DNA of 64,000 nt from the IMG/VR virus record IMGVR_UViG_3300028029_000006, positions 88,236 through 152,235 of that record, one strand, 5' to 3'. Below, piece after piece: positions 3,074 through 53,687 of the stretch. Origin of the DNA: a virus. The notes under the pieces are model-generated. The model had not been told where the DNA came from. It worked only from the letters and a program-made list of their open reading frames with translations, and made no database searches. The stretch's first letter is position 1; each line of letters starts with the position of its first letter. A program made the translations under genes and the position numbers.

Positions 3074-5123
3074 TGATTTTAGTTTAGATGGTTTAAAGGA
3101 AGCAGTTGTAGATATTAATGATCTTAAAGCTGCCGCAACCGATACATCGGCTATTGTGTATTTTAAAGATTCAATTAATGATGTTAGTCAATCAGTTAAA
3201 GATTTAAGTAAAACATTACCAATGCAATCTAATTTAGTAAAAAATTTAACAAGTAAATTTAGTGATTTTACCCATTTAAATTCTAGTAAGTTTTTTACTG
3301 ATATGAAAACTAATTTTGCTGAAATGAATGAAAGCGGTGAATTATCAAGTAGGCAATTATTAAAATTATCTGGAGGTATAGCTGCTGTTTACGCTTCTAG
3401 TACTAATAAATTAGAAATTTCTGGAGAATTGGAAAAAATTAGTAAAGAAGCAAGTGAATCTTCTGGCCAATTAAGTGATGTTTATGATAAAATTATGAAA
3501 TTAATTCCTGGAGGAAAAAAATTAAAAGAAGTTTTGAAATCACAAGGTGTTGATCCGGGAAATACTTTTAAACAAGCTGATCATGCTAGAAATTTAGAGA
3601 CGGCTTTTCTTAGACAAGCCACAGCAGCAGGAGATTTTGAGACTGTAATCAAATCATTAAGAGGTAATTTTGATGGTCTTGGTGGAAAAGTAATTGGTTA
3701 TACAAATCAAATGGCCAATGTAGCTAATGCTAACAATATTAGTTTTGATTCTGCAGTTAGATTATCAAATATGTTAAGAAAAATTCCTGATGCTTTAGAT
3801 ATGACTGTTAGAGTTGGTGGTGAATCAGGTAAAACAATGAACATAATGAATGCAGCATTAAAGGTTGCTTCAGGAACTGGTCAAGATTTTAAAGATGTTA
3901 TTGGGGATATTAATCTTGTTTTGCTTAATTTTAATTCAACAGGTACAGACGCTTTAGAGTTTGTTTCTAAATTACATACAGCAGCTTCTGCAATTAAAAT
4001 GCCTATGGATTTAATGCGTTCATTTGTTGGAGATGCGGCAAAACAATTTAGATTTTTAGGTGATAATACTGAGTCAGCTATTAATATTATGTCAAGATTT
4101 GGTCCCGCATTAAAATCATCTGGAGTTGGGCCAGAAGGAATTAAAGATATTGTAGGAAATCTTATTAGAGTAACTTCTCAATTAGATGTAGCTCAAAGAG
4201 GTTTCGTTTCTGGTCAAACTGGGGGTCCTGGTGGGTTGCAGGGTGGTTATAAGATGGCTCTCGCAATGAAAGAAGGGAAAATGGACGATGTTTTTTCAGA
4301 TGTAGAAAAAACATTAAAAAAAATGATGGGTGGAAGATTAGTTGGGTTAGAAGATGCTGCTACTAGTTCTGTTGACGCAAATCAAATGGCTAAACAAGTT
4401 CAAATGTTAACAACTGGACCATTAGCTATTGCTAGTTCTGAAGGGGAAGCTTTTAAAATTATCGAAGCTTTTACAAAGGGAATGCCTTCAATGGAAGATG
4501 TTTCTGCAGGAATGGGATCGAAAGAAGATATTTTAGCCGAATCAGTTAAAACAGGAAATGATATTCAAAAACATCAATTAAATGCAACTAATGCAATTAG
4601 AAATGAGATTGAAAAACAAAGTGTTTTAGAAGCTTTTAGTTTAGATGCTCTTTTAAAAATGTCTTCAGGTAAAGATAGTAATATAGGTCAAATGGCTTTA
4701 AAGAAAATGAGCGAATCGCAAAATGTATCTAATAGCACTAAAGTGATATCTGGCGAGCCAACAGATTTAGTTAGTGAAATAGATAAAACTTTATCTTCAG
4801 CAAAAGATCTTGCTAATGATGCTTTATCTTTAATGCCTTTGGTTGGAGACACTGTTAAGAAATTAATTAAAAGTGATTACCAAGGTGATGTAGCTAAAAA
4901 TACAGCTAAAGATATTAATGCTGGTGCGTCTTCAGTTGAAAATCATAAAAATCAAGAAAAGAAGGCTGTTGATGGTAGATCAACTGGCGAACCAAGTACA
5001 ATTATTATTAAAGTTATGTCAGATAAAGATGTTGAAAGAATTATAGAGGTTAAACTTGATGAATATGGTAAAATTACTAGTCATAAAGAGGCTGCAGCAT
5101 CTTATGGACAGTCTGGACGATAA
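3066..5123 (+). CDS. Tape measure protein
   Basis: 685-aa Ala/Gly/Met-rich helical protein directly after the G/GT-like chaperone and before the baseplate genes. Confidence 0.75.
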   Translation: MADDFSLDGLKEAVVDINDLKAAATDTSAIVYFKDSINDVSQSVKDLSKTLPMQSNLVKNLTSKFSDFTHLNSSKFFTDMKTNFAEMNESGELSSRQLLKLSGGIAAVYASSTNKLEISGELEKISKEASESSGQLSDVYDKIMKLIPGGKKLKEVLKSQGVDPGNTFKQADHARNLETAFLRQATAAGDFETVIKSLRGNFDGLGGKVIGYTNQMANVANANNISFDSAVRLSNMLRKIPDALDMTVRVGGESGKTMNIMNAALKVASGTGQDFKDVIGDINLVLLNFNSTGTDALEFVSKLHTAASAIKMPMDLMRSFVGDAAKQFRFLGDNTESAINIMSRFGPALKSSGVGPEGIKDIVGNLIRVTSQLDVAQRGFVSGQTGGPGGLQGGYKMALAMKEGKMDDVFSDVEKTLKKMMGGRLVGLEDAATSSVDANQMAKQVQMLTTGPLAIASSEGEAFKIIEAFTKGMPSMEDVSAGMGSKEDILAESVKTGNDIQKHQLNATNAIRNEIEKQSVLEAFSLDALLKMSSGKDSNIGQMALKKMSESQNVSNSTKVISGEPTDLVSEIDKTLSSAKDLANDALSLMPLVGDTVKKLIKSDYQGDVAKNTAKDINAGASSVENHKNQEKKAVDGRSTGEPSTIIIKVMSDKDVERIIEVKLDEYGKITSHKEAAASYGQSGR

Positions 5124-28731: not shown

Positions 28732-31662
28732 ATGACAAACAAAAGAGATGTATCTTTACCACATAATCTTTGGAATGACGCACAAAGAGTAGATAAAACG
28801 GATTTTAACTTAGAGCAAGATCGTAATATTGCGACTGATGCTTCTATTGTTCAAAACCATTTTGGTTCTGGCGTTCTTCTTAAAGGGCCTACTCAGAATG
28901 TTGTTTTTGATTCTGATAGTTTAACTTCAAGTCAAGCTTCAATTTTAGCAGCAAATAACTTTGATGGATTAGGTCTAGATGCTCATCAACAACCTAATGA
29001 TTCTAGTTTAGGAAATCAACTAGAAGTAGAATTAACTAATACTGTAGGAGCTGTTGGTCGATTTAGTACCAAAGTTGCTATTATTGGATTAGCTTTTGAT
29101 GGCACTCTTATAGTAGATAGGTTATATTTTTACAAAAATGAAAAACAAGTAACCAGAAATCATTATAAGCAAGTTTTATCTATATTTTTTAATGATTTTA
29201 AAGGGAATAATAATTGTTCACGCAATTTAGGTGGTTCAATTGTTATTAGCGAAGCCGCTTCTTTTCAATTGTCACGTGATTCAATTATGGTTGCGCAAGA
29301 TTTGGAACCTGATATTTTTTGGAGAGACTGGAAGGTATCTGATCCGGCATTAACTTTATTTACCACTATTCAAAATGGAATTGGTTCTAGTTATAGTGTT
29401 GACTCTTTAAATATCACAACAACTCCGAGGAATCTTAGGTTTTTGGAAGCGAATGATGTTGTTAAAAGATTAGGTCAAAAATTTCAAGCGCAAACTGATA
29501 ACATTCAAAAAATTACATTCTTAATGGGGGCTTCTTTAGATGGATATGTAGAAGCAACTCAATTTGATTGGTTAGGCGATATTGTTATTAGTGTATATTC
29601 ATTACAAACTACTACCAATTGCCCAACTGATATTGTTCCAGGTTTAGCTATTGAATTTGATCCTTCCAATGAACCTATTGCTCAATTAAGTTTTGATCAA
29701 GCATCTTTGGAAGCTCTTGGTTATGTATTAACTGATGTGGCGCAACCAATTGATTTTGTTTTTAATTCTACCAAGTTAAGTTCTGGTACTACTAGTACAG
29801 TTGTTTCGGATCGTTTTTATGCTGTTACAATTGGAAGGTCTGGTGCTTCCACATCTGGAACATTATTTTTAGAAATTGGTGCAGATAGGGTTGAAAACTC
29901 TAGACTAACTGTTTTCAGTGGTGTTTGGACAGATGTAGTTGAAGAAGATTTATGGTTTCAGGTTTGGTCAGATGCAGCTAAGATTGCTGATGGTCAAGGG
30001 TATGATAATGGCATTGGTATGCAGTTTAATAAAACCGCAACTGATCCTAATACTGGTGGAACAATTGATAATCAGATTAATTCAAAATCATTTACTGATA
30101 CTGGAGAAAGTGTATTAAATATTGGTGTGCTACAAGCTAGTGAAGATAAAACTGTTACTGAACAGGATGAGAGAACTGGTAATGATGTTTTTTCTAGAAA
30201 AGAGTTTGCCCCTGAGTTTAATTTTCTTAGTGAGAGTGGTTTAGCTAGTTTACGTACTAATACAGATCCAATTGTAATTGGTTGTGCAGAGGATTTGAAC
30301 CCTAAGCAAAATGTTAATTTAACTAAAACTCAAACATTTCCAGGTTTAGCTAAAGGCGACAAATTTAATGTTATTAATCCTGATCCTGATTTGTTATCAT
30401 TAAATTTAGTTGGTAGTAAATTAATTCCTAACGTTATTTGTTCTCAAGAAGACTTTTTAATTGTTAAAGTTGAATTATGTACAGATGGTTATGGAGATGT
30501 TAATGGTGACGGGATTATTGATTTAGCTGATGTTGCTAGGGCTTCTGAGTTAATTGGTGAAAGTTTAGATTTAGATTCTACTCAGCAAAAGATAGTTGAT
30601 GGATATTTTTCAACCTTAGAGGTTATTAGAGCGGATGTTGATGGAGATGGTTATGTTACATCTAGTGATGTAAGTTTGATCACTCAATTTGTTAACAAGG
30701 AGATATCATCATTTGAGGTTGGAGCAACTTTTCAACATTTATGTATCACTGTACAAAACACAGTTGGTCGTTATGATGGATATTGGGATTGTGATGGTTA
30801 TGTTAGAATTGATGGGTACAGTGGCACAACCATTGTAGATCCTGATGATTTAAGTGTTTCGCAAATTAAGTATCTTGGTAATTTTGTGGATCCAATGATT
30901 GATGCGGATGTTACGTTTTCCACAGTGCCATTTGCGGGGGTTACATATCAAATAATTTCTCAACCATTTTGGCAACCTCAATTTGTTGCATTTAATTCTG
31001 GTGCAAAAGTTGTTCCATCTTCTTTTTGTAGTTTGACTGGAAGTTTGCCATCTATTGATTGTGAAGCTGATCCTGTGTTGTTTTCTTGTGAAGATAGGAA
31101 CGCTATTACACCAGTTTGTGATCCTGGAGTTAATACATTTTATGTTCCTGGAGATTTAATTATTGATAGAGGGCAGATTAGAAGACCTGATGGAAACTTG
31201 TTTAGACCGGATTTTGAGGTTGGAAGCGTAACATTGCAGTTACCAGATACTCCTTTAGAGGAAGTTTCGTTGAATATTTTTGATAAATTTGTGGCAGATC
31301 GTGGAGATGGCTTGACACGAGCTTTGTTTCCTGCTATGAAGTATGCAGATTGTTCTACGGTTCAAGATGAGGACTTGAGTTTGAATAAAATTAGGTTCTC
31401 TGTGTCGATTCAGGCTTTCGTTCCCAACTTAGATGGTTATAGTGAAGAGGATGGGTATGGTATAGTTTGTGATGAAATAATAGGTATTTTTGTTGACCCT
31501 ACAACTGGTATTTTAAAATTATCTGTTAAAGATTTGTTTGTAGATCAAGTATTTAAAACATTAGTTACTAAAATTCATATAGATGTATATTTGAAAAAAT
31601 CTGGTTGGGTTAATACTCCAATAGATGTTACTCCAGAGCAATTTCCTGGGCTGTTATCTTAA
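28732..31662 (+). CDS. Baseplate/fibre-associated structural protein with a dockerin-like Ca-binding pair
   Basis: N-terminal WNDAQRVDKTDFNLEQ, as in baseplate-attached proteins. Contains GDVNGDGIIDLADV and ADVDGDGYVTSSDV. Confidence 0.55.
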   Translation: MTNKRDVSLPHNLWNDAQRVDKTDFNLEQDRNIATDASIVQNHFGSGVLLKGPTQNVVFDSDSLTSSQASILAANNFDGLGLDAHQQPNDSSLGNQLEVELTNTVGAVGRFSTKVAIIGLAFDGTLIVDRLYFYKNEKQVTRNHYKQVLSIFFNDFKGNNNCSRNLGGSIVISEAASFQLSRDSIMVAQDLEPDIFWRDWKVSDPALTLFTTIQNGIGSSYSVDSLNITTTPRNLRFLEANDVVKRLGQKFQAQTDNIQKITFLMGASLDGYVEATQFDWLGDIVISVYSLQTTTNCPTDIVPGLAIEFDPSNEPIAQLSFDQASLEALGYVLTDVAQPIDFVFNSTKLSSGTTSTVVSDRFYAVTIGRSGASTSGTLFLEIGADRVENSRLTVFSGVWTDVVEEDLWFQVWSDAAKIADGQGYDNGIGMQFNKTATDPNTGGTIDNQINSKSFTDTGESVLNIGVLQASEDKTVTEQDERTGNDVFSRKEFAPEFNFLSESGLASLRTNTDPIVIGCAEDLNPKQNVNLTKTQTFPGLAKGDKFNVINPDPDLLSLNLVGSKLIPNVICSQEDFLIVKVELCTDGYGDVNGDGIIDLADVARASELIGESLDLDSTQQKIVDGYFSTLEVIRADVDGDGYVTSSDVSLITQFVNKEISSFEVGATFQHLCITVQNTVGRYDGYWDCDGYVRIDGYSGTTIVDPDDLSVSQIKYLGNFVDPMIDADVTFSTVPFAGVTYQIISQPFWQPQFVAFNSGAKVVPSSFCSLTGSLPSIDCEADPVLFSCEDRNAITPVCDPGVNTFYVPGDLIIDRGQIRRPDGNLFRPDFEVGSVTLQLPDTPLEEVSLNIFDKFVADRGDGLTRALFPAMKYADCSTVQDEDLSLNKIRFSVSIQAFVPNLDGYSEEDGYGIVCDEIIGIFVDPTTGILKLSVKDLFVDQVFKTLVTKIHIDVYLKKSGWVNTPIDVTPEQFPGLLS

Positions 31663-32846
31663 TGCCTAAAGCTAAAAGTATTGAGTTTATTAGGGAGCTT
31701 GTCGAAAAAAAGGATGGTTATCTTTTAAGCGATTTTTATCAAAATTGTAACACCCCATTAAAGATTAAATGTAAAAACAATCATATATGGGTTACTAAAT
31801 ATAATAGTTTGAGGAAAGGTTGTTGGTGTATAATATGTGTAAGAAGAATAACAATTGGTCATGCTCAAAAAATAGCTTTAAAGCGTGGAGGAAAGTGTTT
31901 ATCTAAAGCTTTTAAAGGCAGTTATACTAAACTTGAGTGGGAGTGTAAATATGGTCATATTTGGAAAGCTCTTTATAAAGATGTTAAATCTAAAAGTAGT
32001 TGGTGCCCCTCTTGTTCAACTGGTTTATATGAAAGGTTATGTAGACAATTTTTAGAACAGGTTTTTAATAAAAAATTTCCTACTAAAAGACCTGGTTGGC
32101 TTTTAAATTCTAGAAATAACAGAATGGAATTAGATGGTTATTGTGAAGAATTAGGTTTAGCTTTTGAACATAATGGAAAGTATCATTATGAAGATATTCC
32201 GTTTTTCACTACAAAGTTATCATTTGAAGGTAGAAAAAAAGATGATTTGATGAAAATTTCTCTGTGTAAAGATAAAGGTGTTAAATTAATTATAATACCT
32301 GAGTTATATACAATTCTTCCAATAAAAAAGTTAAAAAATCATTTAAGGAATGAATTTATTAAACTTAATATTGATATACCAAGTAAATTTGATGAGGTTG
32401 ATGTAAATAAAATAAATTTAAACTCTTCTAAAATTGATGAGTTGAAAAAAATAGCTATTGATAAGGGTGGAGAATTAATTTCTAAGGTGTATTTAGGAGC
32501 AAATTATCATTTAACTTGGTCTTGTAATGAAGGCCATCATTGGAAAGCAACTCCTGCTATGGTTAAATTTCAAACTTGGTGCCCTCAATGTTATGAGAAT
32601 AGAAGAGGTGACACTTTAAAAAAACATTCTATTAACACTTTTAGAAAATTAGCTTTACAAAAAGGTGGCAAGTGCTTATCTTTAGATGAAGACTATGATA
32701 AGTTAAACAACAGTAGATTAAAATTTGTTTGTAATAAAGGTCATGAGTGGTTGATGTTAGTAAGTACTATTTTGTATAAAAAATCTTGGTGTCCTAAATG
32801 TGCCAAAATCCAAAAAAAAAGAAGCAAATTAGATGATTATTATTAG
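31662..32846 (+). mobile_element. Zinc-ribbon-repeat endonuclease (PD-(D/E)XK/Vsr-like), 2 + 2 repeats
   Basis: Repeats GGxCLS...WxCxxGHxW...WCPxC flank the core MELDGYCEELGLAFEHNGKYH. Confidence 0.75.
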
Positions 32847-36613: not shown

Positions 36614-36940
36614 ATGATTACATTAACAGATAAAGCAAAAGCCAAAATTCTAAGAATAATTGAAGAGGAAGAATTGGAAGATCAACATCTTAGAATCAAT
36701 ATTTTAGGCGGTAAGTGTGCCGGCTTTTCTTTTGATTTGTTTTTTGAAGAAGTAAAACCAACAGATGATGATTTGATATTTAATTTTGATAGCATAAATG
36801 TTGTTATTAACCCATTAGTAGGGTTATATATTGATGGCACCGAGATTGATTATATAAATTCATTATTTGGTGGGGGTTTTAAATTTACTAATACTAAATT
36901 TAGTAGTCAATGTGGATGTGGGAACAGTTTTAGCTTGTAA
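36614..36940 (+). CDS. iscA: Fe-S cluster A-type carrier (IscA/HesB/ErpA family)
   Basis: ITLTDKA, GGKCAGFSF, GGGFKFTN and CGCGNSF, with all three conserved Cys. Confidence 0.9.
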   Translation: MITLTDKAKAKILRIIEEEELEDQHLRINILGGKCAGFSFDLFFEEVKPTDDDLIFNFDSINVVINPLVGLYIDGTEIDYINSLFGGGFKFTNTKFSSQCGCGNSFSL

Positions 36941-36958
36941 TAATATGGTATTAAAATT

Positions 36959-37894
36959 ATGAATAAAAAACTAGCAGTAACGACTCCACAGATTTTATCA
37001 TATTTAGCTGGGTTTGTAGATGGGGATGGTTCCATTACTATAATAGCAAGAAATGATGGAAAAAAGACTGGTTATAGACCAAAATTAACTGTGTATAATT
37101 GTAACCCCAAAATGGTTCAAATTATGAACACTTATTTTGGAGCTGGGTGAGTTAGGGCTAAAAAAACAGGTAAAATTAAACACGATAATTGGCGCCCTGT
37201 TTATGAATGGTGTATTTATAATGATAGAGCTGTTGCTGCCATTAAAAGCATTAATCCATACTTAATAATAAAAAAAAGACAAGCTAGACTTGTATTAAGA
37301 TTTAACAGAATAAATAAGAAGTATAATAGAACTTTAAGACGTTGGCATCCAAAAATTAGCGATAAGTGTTTTATTTTGTTTGGTAAGCTTAAAAGTGAAT
37401 GTAATGCTATTAATTGTAGAGGTATTAAAAAGGCTATTAGGAAAGCCCCAGATTCTGATTATATTAATGAATATGTTGATTCATATTTTGCTGGTTTATT
37501 AGATTCTGATGGGTCTTTTGTTATTTATGGGAAGAATAATATGCCTAAAGTTAATTTATCTTCAAACAATTTGCAAGTAATCCATATTTTTAATGAGTTA
37601 TATGGTGGTAGTTATTATGTTAGAGATCGTAAAAATAAAGGTTGGAATTTATCTTATCAATGTGATATAACTGCAGTTGCCTCTAAAGTTCCACTAAAAA
37701 GAATAACACCATATTTAATTTTAAAAAAAAAGCAAGCTAAATTACTTTGGGGTATAGTTAATGTACGTAAATATTTTCAGTACAACCGCGATCCTATTGC
37801 TAAAGCTAAGAAAAATAAAATATGTGGTATTTTAAAAGAGAAATGTTCATCTTTAAACAAAAAATCAGTACAAAACCAACAGATGATGATTTAG
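36959..37894 (+). pseudogene. Double-motif LAGLIDADG homing endonuclease interrupted by one in-frame TGA (37148-37150)
   Basis: YLAGFVDGDGSI and YFAGLLDSDGSF lie in the same frame. Apart from that single TGA the frame is open from 36959 to 37894. Confidence 0.8.
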
Positions 37895-38058
37895 TATTTA
37901 ATATTGATAGCATCACTGTTGTTATTAATCAATTAGTAGATTTATATGTTGATGGTACTGAAATTGATCATGTCGATTCGTTTCTTGGCGGAGGATTTAA
38001 ATTTACTAACGCTAAGTTTAGTAGCCAATGTGGTTGCATGAAAAGTTTTAGTTTGTGA
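37872..38058 (+). pseudogene. Displaced duplicate of the iscA 3' half
   Basis: Colinear with 36754-36940 (187 bp, 34 mismatches by hand count, about 82% identical, no indels). Encodes KPTDDDL...CGCMKSFSL. Confidence 0.9.
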
Positions 38059-38064
38059 TATTTT

Positions 38065-40700: not shown

Positions 40701-41804
40701 ATGAATAAAATTAAAAAAGCTAAAGAAAAAGCCTTAAGCAGAGGGGGGGAGTGTTTATCTGAAACATGTAATAAAGTAACGGATAAACTTAAGTGGATTT
40801 GTGATAAAAATCATACATGGATTACATCTTATAGTACCGTTATTAACAGTTCTTGGTGTCCTGAATGCAGTTATGAAAAAAAAAGGTTATCTATTGAAAA
40901 AATAAATAAAATAGTTGGTGATAAATTTGGGGGTTTGTGCATTTCTAAAAAATATAAAAATAACCAAACTAAGCTTTTGTGGCAATGTAAAAAGGGGCAT
41001 ATTTGGAGTGCTATTTATGGAAATATACAAAACCATAATCGTTGGTGCCCACATTGTGCTGGTAATGCTAAGTTAAATATTAATCAAATGAATGAGATTG
41101 CAAGCAAAAGAGGAGGTAAATGTAACTCTATTAAGTACACTAATAATCACACTAAATTATCTTGGGAGTGTTTTATTGGGCACCGATGGGAAATGAGACC
41201 TAATGATGTAATTCAAAAAGGAAATTGGTGCCCTGAATGTAATAATTCAATTGGAGATAGGTGTTGTAAGATTATATTTGAGAAATCTACAGGTAGAATA
41301 TTTAAAAAAATACGACCTGATTGGCTTAAAAATCATAATGGAAATAATTTAGAGCTTGATGGTTATTGCTCCAGTTTAAATATTGCGTTTGAATATAATG
41401 GGGTTTATCATAATGAATTAGTTTTTACTTTTCATGACGAAAACGATTTAAAAAAAGTTAAAACTCATGATGAAATTAAAAGAAATATTTGCGCAGATTT
41501 GGGTATTAAATTATTCGTAATAAATGAACCTCGCCCATTTTCATTAAAAAAAATAAAAGAAGAAATTAAAAGAAAAGTTGATTTTAATGTTGTTGATGAT
41601 ATCAATAATATTGATTTGTTAGTTTATGCTAATGATAAGTTAGAAAAATATAGAGAGATAGCTAAATTAAAAGAGGGAAGCTGTTTAGATAATAAATGGA
41701 TTAATTCTCAATATAAATTAAGATGGAAATGTAAGAATAATCATATTTTTGAAGCAACTCCAAACGGAATACAGCAAGGTAAATGGTGCCCAAAATGCAA
41801 GTAA
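40701..41804 (+). mobile_element. Zinc-ribbon-repeat endonuclease, 3 + 1 repeats
   Basis: Same repeat as 31662, with core LELDGYCSSLNIAFEYNGVYH. Confidence 0.75.
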
Positions 41805-46501: not shown

Positions 46502-47418
46502 ACTGTTTCCAATATAATTTTATATGTTTTTTCATTAGATGTCAAATCATAAAACTTTTTAGTTCCTAAAATGTCATTTTTAACTGTGTTAACATAATTT
46601 TGATGATCTTGAGCGGAAAAGTCTTCTAATTTAGATAACAACTTGGGCTTATTAATAATCCAATCTTTACCTTCTTTTCTACAGTACTCTCTTAAGTCAA
46701 TATATGATTCTTTTGCTAATCCAAAATCATTTACATTATGACAACCAAAGTATATTGGAACAGCTCCAGTTTTCCAAACATCAGGCATTTTCTCAGTAAA
46801 ATAATTATGAGTAAAAACTGGATCGTAAGAGTTCTCAGTACATACAGAGAATTTGCTACTTTCTAATAACGTTTGCTTATTTTTAGCTTTTCCTTTATAG
46901 TAATCTCTCTTAATGGGAATTTGACCATACCATTCTACTTTAAATTTTGATTGCGCATGTAACATATCAGCTAATAACAATCTAAAAGAGTATAATTCAG
47001 AATGATGTTGTGAAGTCTTATTATTTGCGACAAAAATTATTTTGTTTTTTCTTTTTGACCACTCTGGCCATTTATCAGTTATTCCTGGTCCAGGGATTTG
47101 GTGATAAGTTGGATGAGGTATTTCAATAACTTTTTCTCTTAATTTGGAATTAAAAGCTTTTGATGCCCAAGTGAAAATATGATCAAATCCTCCTACATAT
47201 TTTGATTCATAATCTCTTTCTAAAACACAATAAGGCTCAACTACCAAGATGCTTTCACCAGGCTTTGGATCCCTAATTGAATACCAACCCATTCCGATAT
47301 TAATTTTATTCGGATCTCTTTTGTTGTTATTCCAAATTTCACCAAGTTCATTTTCAAAAACTTTGCTTGGAGCACCAGTTCCAGGTGCGTAAACTATATT
47401 AATTGATTTTTTTGCCAT
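46498..47418 (-). CDS. GT10 alpha-1,3/4-fucosyltransferase-like protein
   Basis: SSKFSVCTENS...NYFTEKMPDVWKTGAVPIYFG is a GT10 motif. Likely start ATG 47418. This is the only credible minus-strand gene. Confidence 0.75.
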   Translation of the reverse strand: MAKKSINIVYAPGTGAPSKVFENELGEIWNNNKRDPNKINIGMGWYSIRDPKPGESILVVEPYCVLERDYESKYVGGFDHIFTWASKAFNSKLREKVIEIPHPTYHQIPGPGITDKWPEWSKRKNKIIFVANNKTSQHHSELYSFRLLLADMLHAQSKFKVEWYGQIPIKRDYYKGKAKNKQTLLESSKFSVCTENSYDPVFTHNYFTEKMPDVWKTGAVPIYFGCHNVNDFGLAKESYIDLREYCRKEGKDWIINKPKLLSKLEDFSAQDHQNYVNTVKNDILGTKKFYDLTSNEKTYKIILETV

Positions 47419-47449
47419 TTTTTCCTTTTTCAAGACCTACAAAATACTC

Positions 47450-47467
47450 ATATGATATATATCATAT
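47450..47467. promoter_or_regulatory. Perfect 18-bp palindrome in the divergent intergenic region
   Basis: ATATGATATATATCATAT, between the divergent GT10 and GT2 starts. Confidence 0.5.
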
Positions 47468-47478
47468 CAGAGGTAATT

Positions 47479-48213
47479 ATGCAAAAAATAACAGTAGTAA
47501 TACCATCTTATAAAAATGAGAAGTGGTGCGAGAAAAATTTATCATCAGTATTATCACAAGATTATGATAATTATAAAGTAATTTATACAGACGATTGCTC
47601 TCCAGACAAAACGGCTGATAAAGTAGAAGCATTTATCAAGCAGCATAAAGCTGGTGATAAAGTTGAATTAATTCGTAATACTACACGACTAGGTGCTATG
47701 CATAATTTATATAATATGATTCACTCTTGTGATGATAATGATGTGATTGTGACTACTGATGGGGATGATATGCTTGCCCATTCTAGGGTATTACATAGGA
47801 TTAATGAAGAATATGAATCTGGTGAAGTATGGATGACTTGGGGATCTTATGTTGACCACCCACAAAACACAAAAGGTTGCGCAAAACCAATTCCTCAACA
47901 TATTATTAATGCAAATAGTTTTAGACGTCATCCGTGGTGTTTTTCTCATTTGAGGACATTTAAAGCTGGTATTTTTAAAAAGTTGCCAGAATCAGATTTT
48001 AAAGAAGGTGATAAGTGGATGATGGCTGGGTGGGATTTGCCAATTATGTTTGGTTTGGCTGAACTTTCAGGTAATAGAATACGTCATATTCCTGATGTTT
48101 TGTATTTATATAATAACTTAAATCCAATACAAGACTTTAAAATTCGCCTGCATGAACAACAAAGAATTGAGAGGCTTGTTAGGGGAAGGAGACCTTATGA
48201 TCGAATTAAATAA
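47479..48213 (+). CDS. Glycosyltransferase, GT2
   Basis: TVVIPSYKN, YTDDCSPD, TDGDD, WMTWGS, SHLRTF. GAGGT SD before ATG 47479. Confidence 0.85.
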   Translation: MQKITVVIPSYKNEKWCEKNLSSVLSQDYDNYKVIYTDDCSPDKTADKVEAFIKQHKAGDKVELIRNTTRLGAMHNLYNMIHSCDDNDVIVTTDGDDMLAHSRVLHRINEEYESGEVWMTWGSYVDHPQNTKGCAKPIPQHIINANSFRRHPWCFSHLRTFKAGIFKKLPESDFKEGDKWMMAGWDLPIMFGLAELSGNRIRHIPDVLYLYNNLNPIQDFKIRLHEQQRIERLVRGRRPYDRIK

Positions 48214-49148
48214 TAATATAATTGCAGCTTATAAAACAGGAAGAACTGGTCCTGATATTTCTAAAGAGTTTAATGTATCAACATCAAAAATATATAGAAT
48301 ACTCAAAAAAAATGGGATTATTCCTAGAAAAAAATCAAAATTAGAACTTTTTAAAGGTGAATTAATTAACAAATACAAATACGGAAAATCTATTGTTAGT
48401 CTTGCTAATGAATTTGTGGTTTCGCAAGAGTGCGTTAGGAATTTGCTTATTGCCAATAGTGTGCGCTTAAGAGGGCCTAAAGAATATGGTAAAGAATATG
48501 GTAAAAAATATAATATTAATGAAAATTATTTTAACGATATTGACTCAGAAGTTAAAGCGTATGCATTAGGTTTTATTTTAGCAGATGGCTCCTTAATTTC
48601 TGGCAGTGGGAAATCTCGTAGCCATATGGTAACAATAGAAATTCAAGAACGAGATCGTTATATATTAGATTTTATCAATAAAAACATGTGTCATAATAGG
48701 CCTTTGTATGTTAGACGTGCTAGGCAAGATACTTGGCAAAATACCGTTACGTTAAAAATAATTAGTGATAACATTTATAATCAGTTGCTTAAGCTGCAAC
48801 TAGGCCCTAATAAATCATTTAATTGTAAGTTTCCCTTAATTAACAATAAATTAATTAAGCATCTTATTCGTGGAATTTTTGATGGTGATGGGGGAGTTTT
48901 CTTTAAGACACCTAGGTGTGGCGAAGTTAGTTTTATTGGGTCGGTTGAGGTATGTGATGCTATTCAAAAAATATTAATAGAAAATAAAATATCTTGTAGA
49001 TTAGTTAATTTAAATTATTATTCTAAACCGCTTGGTAGGGTTTTAATTGAAAGAATGAGTGAAATAAAAAAAAATTGCAGAATTTATTTATGAGGATGCA
49101 TCTGTTTGTTTGAGCAGGAAGCGGGATACTTTTTTTAAATTTGAGTGA
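48197..49148 (+). mobile_element. HTH + LAGLIDADG homing endonuclease, C-terminus frameshifted in an A9 run
   Basis: YFNDIDSEVKAYALGFILADGS and LIRGIFDGDG. Removing one A at 49066-49074 gives the expected tail KIAEFIYEDASVCLSRK to TGA 49146-49148. Confidence 0.78.
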
Positions 49149-49153
49149 TTAAA

Positions 49154-49879
49154 ATGACTGTTTATTTTAAAGAATTGGGTAAGCTTGGTAGAATGGGTAA
49201 TATTCTTTTCGAGTCAGCGGCGGCAATTGCCTTAGCTTTAAGGACAAATGACTCATTTGGTTTTCCGACTTGGGAATATCAAGATGATTTTAATTTACCT
49301 GAAAGGAGCAAAAACAATGTTATTACTAATACAGTTAATTATGATGAGCCTAGCTTTCATTTTACCCCTATTCCAAGGCATACTAAGCATGATTTAAATA
49401 TTCATGGGTATTTCCAGAGCGAACTTTATTTTATTGATTATGAGGATGAAATTAGGAAGCTTTTAACACCAAAATATAAAGGTAATCATCAAGAATATGC
49501 ATCTATACATGTTCGTAGAACTGATTATTTAACTCATGTTGGTTGTTATAATATTTTGGATATGAATTATTATGAAAAAGCTATGGAAGCATGTCCTAGT
49601 AAAAAGTATTTAATATTTTCGGATGATATCGAATGGTGCAAGAAGCATTTTATAGGAAATCAATTTGATTTTTCAGAAGAGAAGCATCCAGTTAAAGATT
49701 TTTCCAACATGATCAGTTGTACTAACCATATAATTGCAAATTCTTCCTATTCATGGTGGGCCTCCTGGTTAGATAGCGATTCCGAGACTGTGGTGGCACC
49801 AAGAAGGTGGTTTGGGCCTAAGTTGGCACCCACACATGACGAAAAAGATTTAATCCCTTCTAGGTGGCTTAAGGTGTAA
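49154..49879 (+). CDS. GT11 alpha-1,2-fucosyltransferase
   Basis: GRMGNILF, HGYFQS, SIHVRRTDY, FSDDIEWC, IIANSSYSWW, VAPRRWF. Confidence 0.9.
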   Translation: MTVYFKELGKLGRMGNILFESAAAIALALRTNDSFGFPTWEYQDDFNLPERSKNNVITNTVNYDEPSFHFTPIPRHTKHDLNIHGYFQSELYFIDYEDEIRKLLTPKYKGNHQEYASIHVRRTDYLTHVGCYNILDMNYYEKAMEACPSKKYLIFSDDIEWCKKHFIGNQFDFSEEKHPVKDFSNMISCTNHIIANSSYSWWASWLDSDSETVVAPRRWFGPKLAPTHDEKDLIPSRWLKV

Positions 49880-49888
49880 AAAATAAAC

Positions 49889-50869
49889 ATGATTAAAGTA
49901 TTATATCTCCCATTAAATTTTGGCCAAATAATCCAAGAAGGAAATTACGATGCGTTCCGGGAAGCTGGATGTCATCTTGATGTATTTGATTATTATACTA
50001 TTTATCTTAATAATAATAAAAACATCAATAAAGTTAGAGAGTTGTTTATTAATGTGGTTAAGAAGGTAAAACCAGATCTTCTTTTTATGCAAATTCAACA
50101 TACAAATATTATTAATGGTGTTACTGTTAATAAAGCTAAGAGACTAAATCCAAATATGGTTGTATCCAATTGGACGGGTGATTCCCGAGGGTTTGTTCCT
50201 AAAACATATAAGGATGTAGCTCGGGTTTCGGATTATAATTTTATATCATCAACTGGTCAGTTGGATATGTTTCGAAAAGAAATTGACAAACCGGTAAACT
50301 ATTTACAAATTGGGTATAACCCTAAGTTATATTACCCAGATCCTAAGCCTAATAATAATTTTACCTGGGATTGTATTTTTGTGGCTAATCACAACCCTAA
50401 AGAAAAATATCCAGGAACTAGAGAAAGAACTAGGACTTGTGAATTGTTAAGAAATAAGTTCAGAGAACGATTTTGTTTGTATGGAGATGGTTGGTCAAGA
50501 AAGCTTAGATCGAAAGGTTCCATTGATCAAAAAGTTTTAGCGACAACATATCATAAATCCAAAGTTTTGATAAGCGTTTCTCACTTTAACGATATCGATC
50601 ATTATTTTTCTGACAGGCTCTTAATGTGCATGGCTTCGGGTCGTCCAACGATATCTTATAGATTTCCTAAATACGAATCTTATTTTGCGAATAAGGGCGA
50701 TCTTGTTATAGCAAATACTATACAGGAAATAGGAGACAAAGTAGATTGGTTAATTAATAATCCAGATATGGCTGATTTTATTGGACGATCTGGCGCTGCC
50801 AAAGTATTTGCCGAACATACTTATTTAAGTAGAGTTAATGAATTATTGAAAATGGTTGGGCTTAGGTGA
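49889..50869 (+). CDS. CgeB/DUF3880-like glycosyltransferase
   Basis: WTGDSR, IGYNPKLY, SDRLLMCMASG, KVFAEHTYLSRV. Confidence 0.75.
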   Translation: MIKVLYLPLNFGQIIQEGNYDAFREAGCHLDVFDYYTIYLNNNKNINKVRELFINVVKKVKPDLLFMQIQHTNIINGVTVNKAKRLNPNMVVSNWTGDSRGFVPKTYKDVARVSDYNFISSTGQLDMFRKEIDKPVNYLQIGYNPKLYYPDPKPNNNFTWDCIFVANHNPKEKYPGTRERTRTCELLRNKFRERFCLYGDGWSRKLRSKGSIDQKVLATTYHKSKVLISVSHFNDIDHYFSDRLLMCMASGRPTISYRFPKYESYFANKGDLVIANTIQEIGDKVDWLINNPDMADFIGRSGAAKVFAEHTYLSRVNELLKMVGLR

Positions 50870-52161
50870 GTAAAAAGTTAGGAATTAGAACTTGTCGAGA
50901 GGCAGCATTGCTAAACAATGGGCTTTGTTTAAGCGATAAATATGGCAAGATTCAAGACGCTTATAAGTGGAAGTGTAGCCAAGGTCATGTTTGGGAAACA
51001 TCATTCGTTTCAGTTAGACAGGGTTCTTGGTGCCCAAAATGTGCATTTAAAAGCAATAGAACAATTGATAATTGTATTGATTTGGCAAAATCTCGGGATG
51101 GTTATTTTTTAAGCGAAGAATACACAAATGCTAAAACTAAATATATCTGGAAATGCAAGGAAGGGCATATTTGGAGAGCCACTTATGATTCAGTATCTTC
51201 TAAAAAAACTTGGTGTCCATCTTGTTCCAACCGAAAAAGAAAAACAGTAAAAGACTGTCAAAACTTAGCCATTAAAAATGGCGGAAGTTTCCTTAATGAG
51301 AGATACTCTAATGCTCATACTAAATATAAGTGGAGGTGTAAAGAGGGGTGTATTTGGGAAGCCACATATAATCAAATAGAACAAGGTTATTGGTGTCCGA
51401 AATGTTATGGCGCAATTAGCATTCAGGATTGTATTGATATTGCTACCGCTAAAGGTGGGAAGTTCCTGAGTGAATGTTATGTTAATAACAAAACAAAAAT
51501 GTTGTGGCAGTGTAAGTATGGGCATCAGTGGGAGTCTAGCTTAGCGTCTATTAAGTATAAGAACCGCTGGTGCCCAAAGTGTCAAGGTTTTAATAGCAAA
51601 AGAAATCCTCCAACCACACAAGATTGTAATAAAATAGCAAATTCTAATGGGGGCAAATTTCTTAGTAGTGAATATGTAAAATCAAATTCTAAGTATTTGT
51701 GGGAATGTAAAAAAGGTCATAAGTGGAAATCAACATATAATGCTGTTCAGCAAGGATATTGGTGCTCTAAATGTAGAGCCTCTAAAAGTCAGAGATATAT
51801 TTATAATATTTTAAAAGAGCATTTTAGTGCTTGCACAGTTATGTTTAACTATAAAGATTTTGATTGGTTGAAAACTTCTGCTAGGGGTAAGATGGAGTTG
51901 GATATATTTGTTATTGAGCTAAAGTTAGCAATAGAATATGATGGGGAACAGCATTTTATGCCTGTAAAGTTTGGTGGTATGTCAGAAAAGCAAGCTGCAA
52001 AAGCCTTCAGCAAGCAAAAGGAAAGAGATATTATTAAAAACAATCTCATTAAACAAAACAGCAATGATGTTAAGTATTTTGTAAGGTTTAATTATAAAGA
52101 AAATTTAAAAAAAGAATACATTATTGATAAGATTAAGTTAGTAACACATGAAAATCTATAA
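50866..52161 (+). mobile_element. Zinc-ribbon-repeat endonuclease, 5 repeats plus C-terminal nuclease
   Basis: Five WxCxxGHxW...WCPxC units, then MELDIFVIELKLAIEYDGEQHF. Confidence 0.78.
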
Positions 52162-52314
52162 TTGTTTCCAAGATATTGTTAAAAAAGTTGAATAATTAAT
52201 TAATAATCCAGATATAGCTAATTTTATTGGAGAATCTGGGCGGCCAAAGTTTTCGCAGAACATGCTTATTTAAGCATAGTTAATGAATTATTAAAAATGG
52301 TAGGTTTAAAATAA
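52154..52314 (+). pseudogene. Decayed duplicate of the 3' end of the CgeB-like gene
   Basis: Colinear with 50708-50869: QDIVKKVE*LINNPDIANFIGESG/AKVFAEHAYLSIVNELLKMVGLK versus QEIGDKVDWLINNPDMADFIGRSGAAKVFAEHTYLSRVNELLKMVGLR. It carries a premature TAA and a 1-bp deletion. Confidence 0.88.
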
Positions 52315-52932
52315 ATGGCAGACACAAAAGAGCATCTGGATTTAGTTGATCGTTTTTGTAAGGTAAACGATGTTAAGCATTTAACAACAAAGTACCCACT
52401 TGATAAAAGTAGTGTTATTTTTGATGTTGGAGCTTATACTGGCGGTTGGGCATTGCGAATGTATGATTTATATGAGTGTCCAATTTATTGTTTTGAACCA
52501 GTTAATAGTAGTTTTTTAGCCTTAGAAAAAGCTACCAATCATTGTGATGATATAGTGAATTTTAATTTTGCTCTTAGTGATAAAAACGGTCATCGTGAAA
52601 TAAATGTGCAAAAAGATGGTTCTAGTTTCTTTGTTTCTTCAGGCGAGTGTGAGTTGGTTAAAGAAAGAGATATGGTTGAAGTGCTTGATGAGCTAAATTT
52701 AAATCAAGTTAGCCTTCTTAAAATAAATATAGAAGGAGCTGAGTTTGATTTATTAGAACACCTCATTGCAAATGATAAACTAAAGGAATTTGAACATATT
52801 CAAATACAGTATCATAGAGAAGTGTTAAATTTTGATGTGAGACGAAATTTTATACAAACTGAGCTACATAAAACTCATAATAAAAATTATGACTATGCTT
52901 TTGTGTGGGAAAGTTGGAGCAAAAAAACATAA
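52315..52932 (+). CDS. FkbM-family methyltransferase
   Basis: VIFDVGAYTG, YCFEP, LLKINIEGAE. Confidence 0.85.
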   Translation: MADTKEHLDLVDRFCKVNDVKHLTTKYPLDKSSVIFDVGAYTGGWALRMYDLYECPIYCFEPVNSSFLALEKATNHCDDIVNFNFALSDKNGHREINVQKDGSSFFVSSGECELVKERDMVEVLDELNLNQVSLLKINIEGAEFDLLEHLIANDKLKEFEHIQIQYHREVLNFDVRRNFIQTELHKTHNKNYDYAFVWESWSKKT

Positions 52933-53687
52933 TGAAAGCATTAGTATTAACATATGATAAGAGATTTGAATTTTCTGAATTAGTAGTCAAGTCATATAAT
53001 ACACTTGCACCTAAGCACCAGCTTGAATTCCTCATCCCATACAATGATGTTTTACCTTCTTATGCATCTAAGTATAACAACATTACATGGGTTAAGGCTG
53101 AGTCAAGCGTTAAGAAAACTATGGCCGCCCTTTTGAAGGGAATACCAGATGATGAATTTATTTATTGGTGTTTGGATGATATCTATCCTCATAAAATATT
53201 AGATCTAAATTTGTTTTATGCTATGCATAACCACGTTGTTGCTGGCAATGTTAAATGCAACGCATTGCGTTTTATTAATCATGACACGCTTAATGGGGCT
53301 GAATCTGGAGTAAATACTCAGCTTGGAGATATGGTATTTGTTAATACTAATTTTTCAGTTTATGGGTTTTGGTTTCATCAATTCATGCAAGCTAAAATAC
53401 TCAAAAGATGTTTTTTGTCTGACAGAATAACAGATAATCATACTATGGAAAAAATTGGAAATGACAGGGATGTTAATCCTCATCTTTATACTCATAATAT
53501 TTGTGTTCCTCGTAAATATATAGCTATTTTTGGTGAAACAACTCGGGCTGCCAATATTATGACCAAAAATTGTAAGGAAGCTTTTGAATTATACAACATT
53601 AATTATAAAGATAAGCAAATGATGGAAAGCGTTTTCAACAATAGACCAATTCGTTTGTTGGATAAGGTGGTTATTGGGTTTTTATGA
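52932..53687 (+). CDS. Hypothetical protein, GT-A-like
   Basis: ALVLTYD...FIYWCLDDIY (DD motif) in the glycan island. Confidence 0.4.
   Translation: MKALVLTYDKRFEFSELVVKSYNTLAPKHQLEFLIPYNDVLPSYASKYNNITWVKAESSVKKTMAALLKGIPDDEFIYWCLDDIYPHKILDLNLFYAMHNHVVAGNVKCNALRFINHDTLNGAESGVNTQLGDMVFVNTNFSVYGFWFHQFMQAKILKRCFLSDRITDNHTMEKIGNDRDVNPHLYTHNICVPRKYIAIFGETTRAANIMTKNCKEAFELYNINYKDKQMMESVFNNRPIRLLDKVVIGFL

What the first reader, a model, noticed from the sequence alone, without database searches (positions are those of the whole stretch)
49889..52314. Homing by 3'-end replacement, case 2: zinc-ribbon nuclease plus a decayed GT tail
The same architecture occurs with an unrelated nuclease: intact CgeB-like GT, nuclease, then a 161-bp relic of the GT 3' end with a premature stop and 1-bp deletion. 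The nuclease stop again falls at the start of the relic. This is direct evidence that the zinc-ribbon nucleases are mobile and that splicing-free gene-tail swapping is a recurring strategy in this genome. It would also reshuffle glycosyltransferase C-termini.
Basis: partly seen in the sequence, partly recalled or inferred. Interest (0 to 1): 0.78.

Follow-up and report, generated by a model that had tools for sequence, protein, structure and literature searches.

The report
Homing nuclease that swapped a gene tail
In a 409-kb jumbo phage, a selfish nuclease gene sits just after a glycosyltransferase gene and appears to have brought a replacement 3' end for it, leaving the old end as a dead 155-bp relic; this layout is already known from fungal mitochondria.

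Summary
The last 156 nt of the CgeB-like glycosyltransferase gene (GT, 50714-50869) recur at 52160-52314, right after the nuclease stop codon. The second copy is 78.5% identical and carries a TGG>TAA stop, a 1-bp deletion and two lost conserved residues.

The 431-aa nuclease has five CapR/DUF4379 zinc ribbons and a Vsr-like PD-(D/E)XK domain (Z 10.3 to Vsr, 8.4 to the homing endonuclease I-Bth0305I). A 2025 paper described this architecture as a phage homing-endonuclease group.

- **Relatives:** of 35 related GT loci, three carry this nuclease at the same junction. The other 32 have neither nuclease nor repeat.
- **Closest pair:** L013 (no nuclease) and L014 (nuclease) share 92-95% identical flanks. 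L014's GT 3' part drops to about 78%, and homology resumes 35 bp before the L013 GT stop.
- **Origin of the relic:** 20 of 34 relic/tail differences lie at third codon positions (p=0.002). The relic also carries residues seen in other natural alleles, so it was a separate working allele.

Best reading: free-standing homing-endonuclease invasion with co-conversion. Cleavage is untested.

"Recurring strategy" is overstated. The genome has two such triplets, but 143 related nuclease loci elsewhere have none. The first-stage scan also noted the second triplet.

The parts
49889..50869 (+). Intact CgeB-like glycosyltransferase gene (326 aa)
   Evidence: ORF. PF13524, E 3.2e-20. Full-length alignment to 340 homologues, with all 40 invariant residues present.
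50714..50869 (+). Current, functional GT 3' end; inferred to have arrived with the nuclease cassette
   Evidence: This is the segment repeated downstream. It keeps the invariant tail residues N291, A295, G299, G302, E309, H310, Y312 and R315. That it was imported is an inference.
50866..51774 (+). Nuclease N-terminal array of five zinc-ribbon units of about 60 aa (W-x-C-x2-G-H-x-W ... W-C-P-x-C), the predicted DNA-binding modules
   Evidence: PF14311 DUF4379, E 4.5e-22, 4 stretches. PF21817 CapR, E 1.3e-16. Internal DNA repeats D1/D2. CapR-type Zn fingers act as DNA-binding domains in phage homing endonucleases (PMC10448857).
51775..52161 (+). Nuclease C-terminal Vsr-like PD-(D/E)XK catalytic domain. 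Invariant residues: Q309, E344, D346, E357, D359, H363, D388, K391
   Evidence: AlphaFold model with pLDDT 89.4. VIA-align Z 10.3 to Vsr 1cw0, 8.6 to 3hrl, 8.4 to I-Bth0305I 3r3p. Invariant columns. PHROG 559, 681 and 9084, annotated as endonuclease or homing endonuclease.
52160..52314 (+). Pseudogene relic of a displaced GT 3' end
   Evidence: 78.5% identical to 50714-50869. Absent from 32 nuclease-free relatives.
52193..52195 (+). Premature TAA in the relic, where all homologues have Trp or another sense codon
   Evidence: Codon-by-codon comparison.
52239..52240 (+). Site of the 1-bp deletion in the relic (Gly302 codon)
   Evidence: Repeat spacing changes from 1446 to 1445. Confirmed.
52315..52932 (+). 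Downstream FkbM-type methyltransferase gene. Its ATG directly follows the relic's TAA, so the relic's 3' end supplies its translation-initiation region
   Evidence: ORF. PF05050. Sequence. Orthologue present in L013 and L014.

Best explanation
[quoted passage not shown] It encodes five CapR/DUF4379 zinc ribbons and a Vsr/EDxHD-like PD-(D/E)XK nuclease domain. It invaded the 3' end of a phage glycosyltransferase gene.

Proposed steps, all inferred:
1. During co-infection the enzyme cuts a nuclease-free GT allele in its last 150-300 bp.
2. The break is repaired from the nuclease-bearing genome. Repair copies the donor's GT 3' end, which is presumably cleavage-resistant, together with the nuclease gene translationally coupled to it (overlapping stop and start codons).
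3. Gene content downstream of the GT differs between relatives, so the far side of the founding event could not be resolved by homology beyond the nuclease. It was joined inside or next to the resident GT tail.
4. That resident tail was therefore kept downstream as a redundant copy. It has since picked up a stop codon, a frameshift and two substitutions at conserved residues.
5. The relic's last nucleotides persist for two likely reasons. They carry the ribosome-binding region of the next gene, and they can serve as the right-hand homology arm in later homing events.

Shown here: the anatomy, the nuclease fold and family, presence or absence at one fixed site, absence of the relic wherever the nuclease is absent, mosaicism of the GT next to the nuclease, and the allelic origin of the relic.

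Not shown: cleavage, the target site, immunity of the current allele, and the repair pathway.
For: 1. The repeat is real and far above chance.
2. Nuclease identity. The C-terminal model has pLDDT 89 and matches Vsr at Z 10.3, DUF559-like 3hrl at Z 8.6 and the catalytic domain of homing endonuclease I-Bth0305I at Z 8.4 over 97 of 98 residues. The D346-H363 spacing of 17 equals D196-H213 of I-Bth0305I (PMC3239194). PHROG hits are annotated endonuclease or homing endonuclease. PMC12350094 describes the same architecture, 3-5 CapR/DUF4379-like domains plus an EDxHD/Vsr-like domain, as homing endonucleases in phage introns.
3. Four paralogues lie in this genome at unrelated sites.
4. Of 35 related GT loci, three carry orthologous nucleases (61-67% identical, collinear) with the same stop/start overlap. 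The other 32 have no nuclease and no tail repeat, with scores of 15 or less.
5. L014 (nuclease) against L013 (none). Flanks are 92% and 95% identical. The GT middle is about 93% identical and its last 290 nt about 78%. The 95% homology resumes exactly 35 bp before the L013 GT stop, so L014 carries a 35-bp relic that matches L013's real tail (32/36) better than L014's own tail (28/36).
6. Differences between relic and current tail fall 7/7/20 by codon position (binomial p=0.002). Relic-specific residues (QDIVKKVE, PDIANF, terminal K) occur in other natural alleles.
7. No intron was detected, so no splicing is needed.
8. A second gene-endonuclease-relic triplet, with a LAGLIDADG enzyme, lies 13 kb upstream.
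Against: - No biochemical or genetic evidence exists for cleavage, target site or immunity.
- The three orthologous nucleases are about as diverged (61-67% aa) as the GTs they follow (about 60-70%). The element therefore looks old and largely vertically inherited in these lineages. Only the L013/L014 pair indicates a recent gain.
- The window's current tail is still the closest known relative of its own relic (78.5%, against 73% for L013). The donor must then have been a fairly close relative, or part of the similarity reflects later gene conversion between the two copies.
- L017 has no detectable relic, and the 29 bp proximal to L014's relic are not recognisable.
- None of 143 related nuclease loci shows a tail relic. 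The architecture is therefore an exception for this family.
Confidence: 0.8

Rival explanations
1. In-situ tandem duplication. The GT tail was duplicated locally, for example by replication slippage or unequal recombination. The nuclease gene later inserted between the copies, and the distal copy decayed. No foreign tail was imported.
For: The relic's closest known relative is the same genome's intact tail: 78.5% nt and 38/51 aa.
Against: - A third-position excess (20 of 34, p=0.002) means most divergence arose under protein-level selection in both copies. After an in-situ duplication the dead copy should change faster than the live one. A rough partition gives about 24 selected-type changes against about 10 neutral-type changes.
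- Relic-specific residues match other natural alleles.
- None of 32 nuclease-free loci has a duplication.
- L014's relic belongs to the L013-type lineage, not to L014's own tail.
Confidence: 0.07
2. Passenger nuclease. Ordinary illegitimate or homeologous recombination between related jumbo phages exchanged a module (GT 3' part plus the adjacent gene) and left a scar. The nuclease is a domesticated or defence-related enzyme that did not cause the exchange.
For: - This glycan island is highly mosaic. The genes after the GT differ among relatives, and the L013/L014 mosaic extends over about 4 kb, including the 5' part of the GT.
- The nuclease orthologues are as diverged as their flanks.
Against: - The fold, domain architecture, multi-copy scattered distribution and fixed-site presence or absence are the hallmarks of homing endonucleases (PMC12350094).
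- The exchange boundary coincides with the nuclease in two genomes.
- An unrelated LAGLIDADG gene shows the same scar.
- Endonuclease genes at boundaries of exchange are what homing predicts (PMC10448857).
Confidence: 0.11
3. Assembly artefact. The duplication arose from mis-joining strain variants in a metagenome assembly.
For: The record is a metagenome-assembled virus, and only one run holds it.
Against: - A second assembler's 30.6-kb contig is identical across the whole stretch at even depth of about 35.
- The copies are only 78% identical, too diverged to confuse an assembler.
- L014, from another sample, has the same architecture.
Confidence: 0.02

Closest known systems
CapR/DUF4379-like plus EDxHD/Vsr-like homing endonucleases of phage group I/II introns (PMC12350094, 2025)
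   Same: Same domain architecture: 3-5 zinc-ribbon modules of about 60 aa followed by a Vsr-like nuclease domain of about 100-130 aa. Also found in large phages.
   Different: This gene is free-standing, with no intron detected. It is translationally coupled to the upstream host gene and is accompanied by a duplicated gene tail.
EDxHD family: I-Bth0305I and the T4-type free-standing Hef (PMC3239194; PMC2677866)
   Same: Vsr-like catalytic fold (Z 8.4 to 3r3p). Conserved Asp...His pair with identical spacing of 17. The family includes free-standing members.
   Different: - DNA binding here is by zinc ribbons, not NUMOD/HTH motifs.
- There is no sequence-level similarity.
- An invariant Gln (Q309) lies in the N-terminal helix, roughly where the family has its first Glu. 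This equivalence was not checked by superposition.
- The His-to-Asp spacing is 25, closer to Vsr (28) than to I-Bth0305I (9).
Intronless homing by T4 free-standing endonucleases (SegF, SegG, MobE; reviewed in PMC2988022, PMC2790892)
   Same: A free-standing gene between host genes. Cleavage in a neighbouring gene of the endonuclease-free genome. Co-conversion of flanking markers produces mosaic neighbours.
   Different: The T4 cases sit in intergenic positions with homology on both sides and leave no duplicated fragment of the target gene.
Fungal mitochondrial genes with a C-terminal partial duplicate separated by homing-endonuclease ORFs (cob and atp6 of Endoconidiophora, PMC6279837). From my own memory, not checked here: the Allomyces atp6 hybrid gene of Paquin et al. 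1994
   Same: Identical layout: intact gene, endonuclease ORF(s), then a decaying copy of the gene's C-terminal segment.
   Different: Organelle rather than phage. LAGLIDADG or GIY-YIG enzymes rather than a Vsr-like zinc-ribbon enzyme. In the mitochondrial cases several degenerate endonuclease ORFs lie in between.
Genes split by a free-standing endonuclease (Aeh1 nrdA/mobE; 'fractured genes', PMC2677866)
   Same: A free-standing endonuclease gene lands inside a coding region without an intron. Coding overlaps occur at the junctions.
   Different: In those cases the host gene stays in two working pieces. Here the gene stays whole because the cassette supplies a complete 3' end and the old end is discarded.

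Membership tests
Vsr-like / EDxHD PD-(D/E)XK homing endonucleases | Vsr-type restriction-endonuclease-like catalytic fold | tested here: met
   Model pLDDT 89.4. Z 10.3 with 123 residues aligned to Vsr 1cw0; Z 8.4 with 97 residues aligned to I-Bth0305I 3r3p. Foldseek alone was weak, with E about 0.1.
Vsr-like / EDxHD PD-(D/E)XK homing endonucleases | Conserved catalytic residues (E, D, x, H, D composite motif) | tested here: inconclusive
   D346, H363 and D388 are invariant in 21 homologues. The D-H spacing of 17 matches I-Bth0305I (PMC3239194). Equivalence rests on spacing, not on a residue-level superposition. The first Glu may be replaced by the invariant Q309.
Vsr-like / EDxHD PD-(D/E)XK homing endonucleases | Sequence-detectable homology to family members | tested here: not met
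   No Pfam hit for the C-terminal domain at E up to 10. No PDB sequence hit with the single sequence or the profile. PMC12350094 likewise calls this group a distant outgroup.
CapR/DUF4379 zinc-ribbon array nucleases of phages | Tandem CapR/DUF4379 zinc-ribbon modules fused to a nuclease domain | tested here: met
   PF14311, 78.5 bits against a cut-off of 24.5. PF21817, 61 bits against a cut-off of 24.2. Five W-C-P-x-C units.
Free-standing homing endonuclease gene (intronless homing) | Presence/absence polymorphism at one fixed site in otherwise syntenic genomes | tested here: met
   3 of 35 loci are occupied at the identical junction. The L013/L014 flanks are 92-95% identical.
Free-standing homing endonuclease gene (intronless homing) | Not embedded in an intron or intein | tested here: met
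   No Rfam match at E up to 1 in 47000-53500. The GT ORF is uninterrupted and full length.
Free-standing homing endonuclease gene (intronless homing) | Elevated divergence or co-conversion tract in flanking host DNA next to the endonuclease gene | tested here: met
   Between L013 and L014, GT identity drops from about 93% (columns 415-695) to about 78% (columns 697-990) towards the nuclease. It returns to 95% after it.
Free-standing homing endonuclease gene (intronless homing) | Site-specific cleavage of the endonuclease-free allele and resistance of the occupied allele | not testable with these tools
   Needs enzyme assays. No cultured phage or host is available.

The most novel reading that the evidence does not exclude
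Free-standing endonuclease cassettes in jumbo phages may work as natural 'home-and-rescue' drives. Each would carry a recoded, cleavage-immune end of the gene it targets. This would let it colonise the inside of coding regions without an intron or intein. It would also make it a regular engine of C-terminal module swapping in virion-glycan glycosyltransferases and other accessory genes. On this reading the relics are functional homology arms and not mere scars.
Probability: 0.25. Interest if true: 0.65.

Novelty: new member of a known kind. Interest (0 to 1): 0.45.

Why it matters
- **A dated footprint.** The locus records how a free-standing homing endonuclease can enter a coding region and keep the host gene intact without splicing. 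It shows donor tail, nuclease and displaced resident tail side by side, with empty sites in relatives for comparison.
- **A candidate target.** It links a recently recognised zinc-ribbon/Vsr-like endonuclease group to a concrete candidate target, the 3' region of a CgeB-like GT. This makes the group's specificity testable.
- **Glycan-island mosaicism.** Endonuclease-driven co-conversion appears to contribute to the mosaic structure of phage glycan-biosynthesis islands.
- **Parallel to engineered drives.** The logic resembles engineered rescue-type gene drives.

The finding is not a new principle. The same layout is known from fungal mitochondria.

Tried and rejected
- **Phage GenBank collection.** blastn of the locus found no match.
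- **Single-protein scan of IMG/VR with the GT.** Nothing found. An alignment-based scan was needed.
- **Nuclease C-terminal domain by sequence.** No Pfam hit. No PDB hit with the single sequence or the profile. Foldseek against PDB gave only weak matches, E about 0.1.
- **Sequencing runs.** Only one run holds the locus, and it is the probable source. Laying its contigs gave one identical contig and no alternative joint. This says nothing about nuclease-free variants in the population.
- **Genome-wide self-BLAST for short direct repeats.** Swamped by tandem paralogue arrays, and it missed the target. It was replaced by an ORF-tail scan.
- **Relics beside other endonuclease loci.** None above shuffles for the other two zinc-ribbon paralogues in the window (31662-32846, 40701-41804) or the GT2-adjacent LAGLIDADG (48152-49093).
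- **L014 and L017 details.** The 29 bp proximal to L014's relic and the post-nuclease segment of L017 are not significantly similar to GT tails.
- **143 related nuclease loci (77 IMG/VR, 66 metagenome).** No tail relic. The two loci with flanking 60-70-bp repeats (L106, L121) have them in non-coding flanks away from the ORF ends, so they are a different phenomenon.
- **Short GT homologues (260-289 aa).** Suspected to be truncated by insertions, but they are N-terminally short gene calls with normal C-termini.
- **Promoter and terminator scan.** Not above shuffles.
Full report
**Context**

The window is bases 88236-152235 of a 409-kb IMG/VR virus record estimated 96% complete. GC content is about 32%. 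Genes lie almost all on one strand with overlapping stops and starts. A gp6-like baseplate wedge protein is present (phrog_6). This is a jumbo tailed phage.

The finding lies inside a long glycan-biosynthesis island. Nearby genes encode GT10, GT2, GT11, a CgeB-like GT and an FkbM methyltransferase.

**The observation**

- The GT ORF is 49889-50869 (326 aa, PF13524).
- The nuclease ORF is 50866-52161 (431 aa).
- The FkbM methyltransferase starts at 52315.

The repeat finder shows GT 50714-50793 matching 52160-52239 (76%) and 50795-50859 matching 52240-52304 (86%). Spacing drops from 1446 to 1445, which marks a 1-bp deletion. Over 149 aligned positions, identity is 78.5%. The local alignment score is 74.5, against a maximum of 13 in 300 shuffles.

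Codon by codon, the second copy carries these lesions:
- TGG>TAA at 52193-52195;
- a frameshift in the Gly302 codon;
- R315I at an invariant position of the family;
- T311A at a nearly invariant position.

The nuclease TAA (52159-52161) overlaps the first aligned base of the relic. The relic's TAA abuts the methyltransferase ATG. I put the relic at about 155 bp rather than 161 bp.

**The nuclease**

Residues 1-303 hold five units of about 60 aa, each ending W-C-P-x-C. They hit PF14311 (DUF4379, treble-clef zinc finger) and PF21817 (CapR). CapR-type zinc fingers are DNA-binding modules of phage T5orf172 homing endonucleases (PMC10448857).

Residues 304-431 have no Pfam or PDB sequence match. 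An alignment of 21 homologues shows invariant Q309, D346, E357, D359, H363, D388 and K391, and near-invariant E344. The AlphaFold model has pLDDT 89.4. Structural matches are:
- Vsr endonuclease, Z 10.3;
- the DUF559-like protein 3hrl, Z 8.6;
- the catalytic domain of homing endonuclease I-Bth0305I, Z 8.4, over 97 of its 98 residues.

The D346-H363 spacing of 17 equals D196-H213 of I-Bth0305I (PMC3239194). PHROGs place the whole protein in families annotated as endonuclease or homing endonuclease.

PMC12350094 (2025) describes this same architecture. It reports three to five CapR/DUF4379-like domains followed by an EDxHD/Vsr-like domain, as a large, previously unrecognised outgroup of homing endonucleases in phage introns. 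Here no intron is present, so this copy is free-standing. The genome holds four paralogues, three of them in the window.

**Relatives**

The GT has 340 detectable homologues, the closest 71% identical. I obtained 35 related loci in total.

Three carry an orthologous nuclease directly after the GT: the window, L014 and L017. All three have the same overlap of GT stop and nuclease start (GTGA or ATGA). The three proteins are collinear and 61-67% identical.

The other 32 loci have an unrelated gene there, typically starting within a few bases of the GT stop. None has a repeat of the GT tail; scores are 9.5-15, at background level.

**The informative pair**

L013 (no nuclease) and L014 (nuclease) are 92% identical upstream and 95% identical downstream. 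Within the GT, identity varies by region:

| GT alignment columns | L013 vs L014 identity |
|---|---|
| 1-414 | about 60% |
| 415-695 | about 93% |
| 697-990 (adjoining the nuclease) | about 78% |

The first region lies next to LAGLIDADG-like ORFs, which differ between the two loci.

The 95% homology resumes in L014 at 8290, which corresponds to L013 6943. That is 35 bp before the L013 GT stop. So L014 also has a relic, of 35 bp. The relic matches L013's real tail (32/36) better than L014's own tail (28/36), with 0 of 500 shuffles reaching the score.

A loss of the nuclease in L013 by recombination between tail and relic would predict that L013's tail upstream of the last 35 bp is L014-like. 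It is not. Gain in the L014 lineage, with about 290 bp of co-converted GT, is the simpler reading.

**Origin of the window's relic**

The 34 substitutions between relic and current tail fall 7, 7 and 20 at codon positions 1, 2 and 3 (binomial p=0.002). Most of the divergence therefore accumulated while both sequences encoded working protein.

A rough partition gives about 24 selection-type changes and about 10 neutral-type changes. This is the wrong way round for an in-situ duplication, in which the dead copy should evolve faster than the live one.

Relic-specific residues occur in other natural alleles: QDIVKKVE in P0022, PDIAN in P0037 and a terminal Lys in many. The lesions proper are few: the stop, the frameshift, T311A and R315I.

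The relic is thus the remnant of a distinct, once-functional allele. It is most simply the resident tail, displaced when the cassette arrived with its own.

The current tail is nevertheless the relic's closest known relative (78.5% against 73% for L013). The donor was therefore not distant, or some later conversion between the copies occurred.

**Mechanism (inferred)**

A free-standing endonuclease that cuts inside the neighbouring gene is normally copied only if homology exists beyond it. Gene content after this GT varies greatly among relatives. The window lacks the two sulfotransferase genes that follow the GT in L013 and L014.

I propose a founding event in which the left end of the break was repaired from the donor through the donor tail and the nuclease gene. 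The right side was then joined at or in the resident tail. This leaves the resident tail, from about the break point to its stop, as a duplicate.

Thereafter the relic plus the downstream gene provide a right-hand homology arm. The relic's last nucleotides are also kept because they carry the next gene's ribosome-binding region. A GGTAGG motif lies about 10 nt before the methyltransferase ATG, and the sequence before the sulfotransferase ATG in L014 is similar.

This model explains why relics are rare. Two of at least five endonuclease loci in this genome have one, and none of 143 related nuclease loci elsewhere does. It also explains why relic length differs between genomes: 155 bp, 35 bp, and none detectable in L017.

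**Second triplet**

At 36614-38060 an intact iscA-like gene is followed by a LAGLIDADG gene, now split into two ORFs. After that comes a 187-bp copy of the iscA 3' half (82% identical, score 102.5). It shows the same third-position excess: 20 of 34, p=0.002. Two unrelated endonuclease families leaving the same scar supports a common repair-based origin.

**Comparison with known systems**

- The enzyme belongs with the CapR-like plus Vsr-like homing endonucleases of PMC12350094.
- The process matches intronless homing with co-conversion, as in T4 Seg and Mob enzymes (PMC2988022, PMC2790892).
- It also matches the observation that endonuclease genes mark boundaries of exchange between phages (PMC10448857).
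- The layout of gene, endonuclease and C-terminal duplicate is reported for cob and atp6 in fungal mitochondria (PMC6279837). From memory, it also applies to the Allomyces atp6 hybrid gene.
- It differs from split or 'fractured' genes (PMC2677866) because the host gene stays whole.

My literature searches did not turn up a phage example of tail replacement with a relic. The library is not exhaustive.

**Verdict**

The feature is real and well supported. It is a new member of a known kind, of moderate interest. The main open point is biochemical: where the enzyme cuts, and whether the current allele is immune.

Noticed in passing
window 36614-38060: A second gene-endonuclease-relic triplet. An intact iscA-like gene (36614-36940) is followed by a LAGLIDADG gene split into two ORFs (36959-37150 and 37376-37894). 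Then comes a 187-bp copy of the iscA 3' half (37872-38058), 82% identical and still an open frame. Differences are 20 of 34 at third codon positions. In the copy, the CGCG motif reads CGCM.
   Followed up: partly
window 48152-49093; L014:5058-5999; L017:2148-3260; L013:5214-6008: A LAGLIDADG gene overlaps the end of the GT2 gene by 62 bp in the window, and sits in the same place in L017. In L014 a homologue lies between GT11 and the CgeB-like GT. L013 has a 264-aa ORF at that spot with weak DNA similarity to it. No relic is detectable beside the window copy. The 5' 414 nt of the GT are only about 60% identical between L013 and L014, next to these ORFs.
   Followed up: partly
L013:6975-8305 and L014:8322-9652, compared with window 52161-52315: Two tandem sulfotransferase-like genes follow the GT (or the nuclease) in L013 and L014. 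They are absent from the window, where the relic abuts the FkbM methyltransferase directly. The genes after this GT differ widely among the 35 related loci.
   Followed up: no
L106:3074-3133 / 4541-4600; L121:2679-2749 / 4342-4413: Two related zinc-ribbon nuclease genes in other viral contigs are bracketed by 60-70-bp direct repeats (97% and about 80% identical). The repeats lie in apparently non-coding flanks 100-300 bp from the ORF. They may be intron-associated. They are not gene-tail relics.
   Followed up: no
G000:C1:270037-270140 and 271425-271528 (outside the window): A 104-bp segment from the N-terminal third of a 156-aa ORF is repeated 1.4 kb downstream at 94% identity. Two or three small ORFs lie in between, with no obvious nuclease signature.
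   Followed up: no
G000:C1:42500-47100, 207100-211100, 276700-279900, 360600-365200 and 367700-370700 (outside the window): Several arrays of tandem paralogous or internally repetitive genes (65-79% identity) dominate the genome's self-similarity.
   Followed up: no
window 31662-32846 and 40701-41804; G000:C1:60122-61375: Three further paralogues of the zinc-ribbon/Vsr-like nuclease lie in the genome (36-46% identical). In two of them, zinc-ribbon matches fall on both sides of the nuclease-domain match. None has a detectable relic of its upstream gene.
   Followed up: partly
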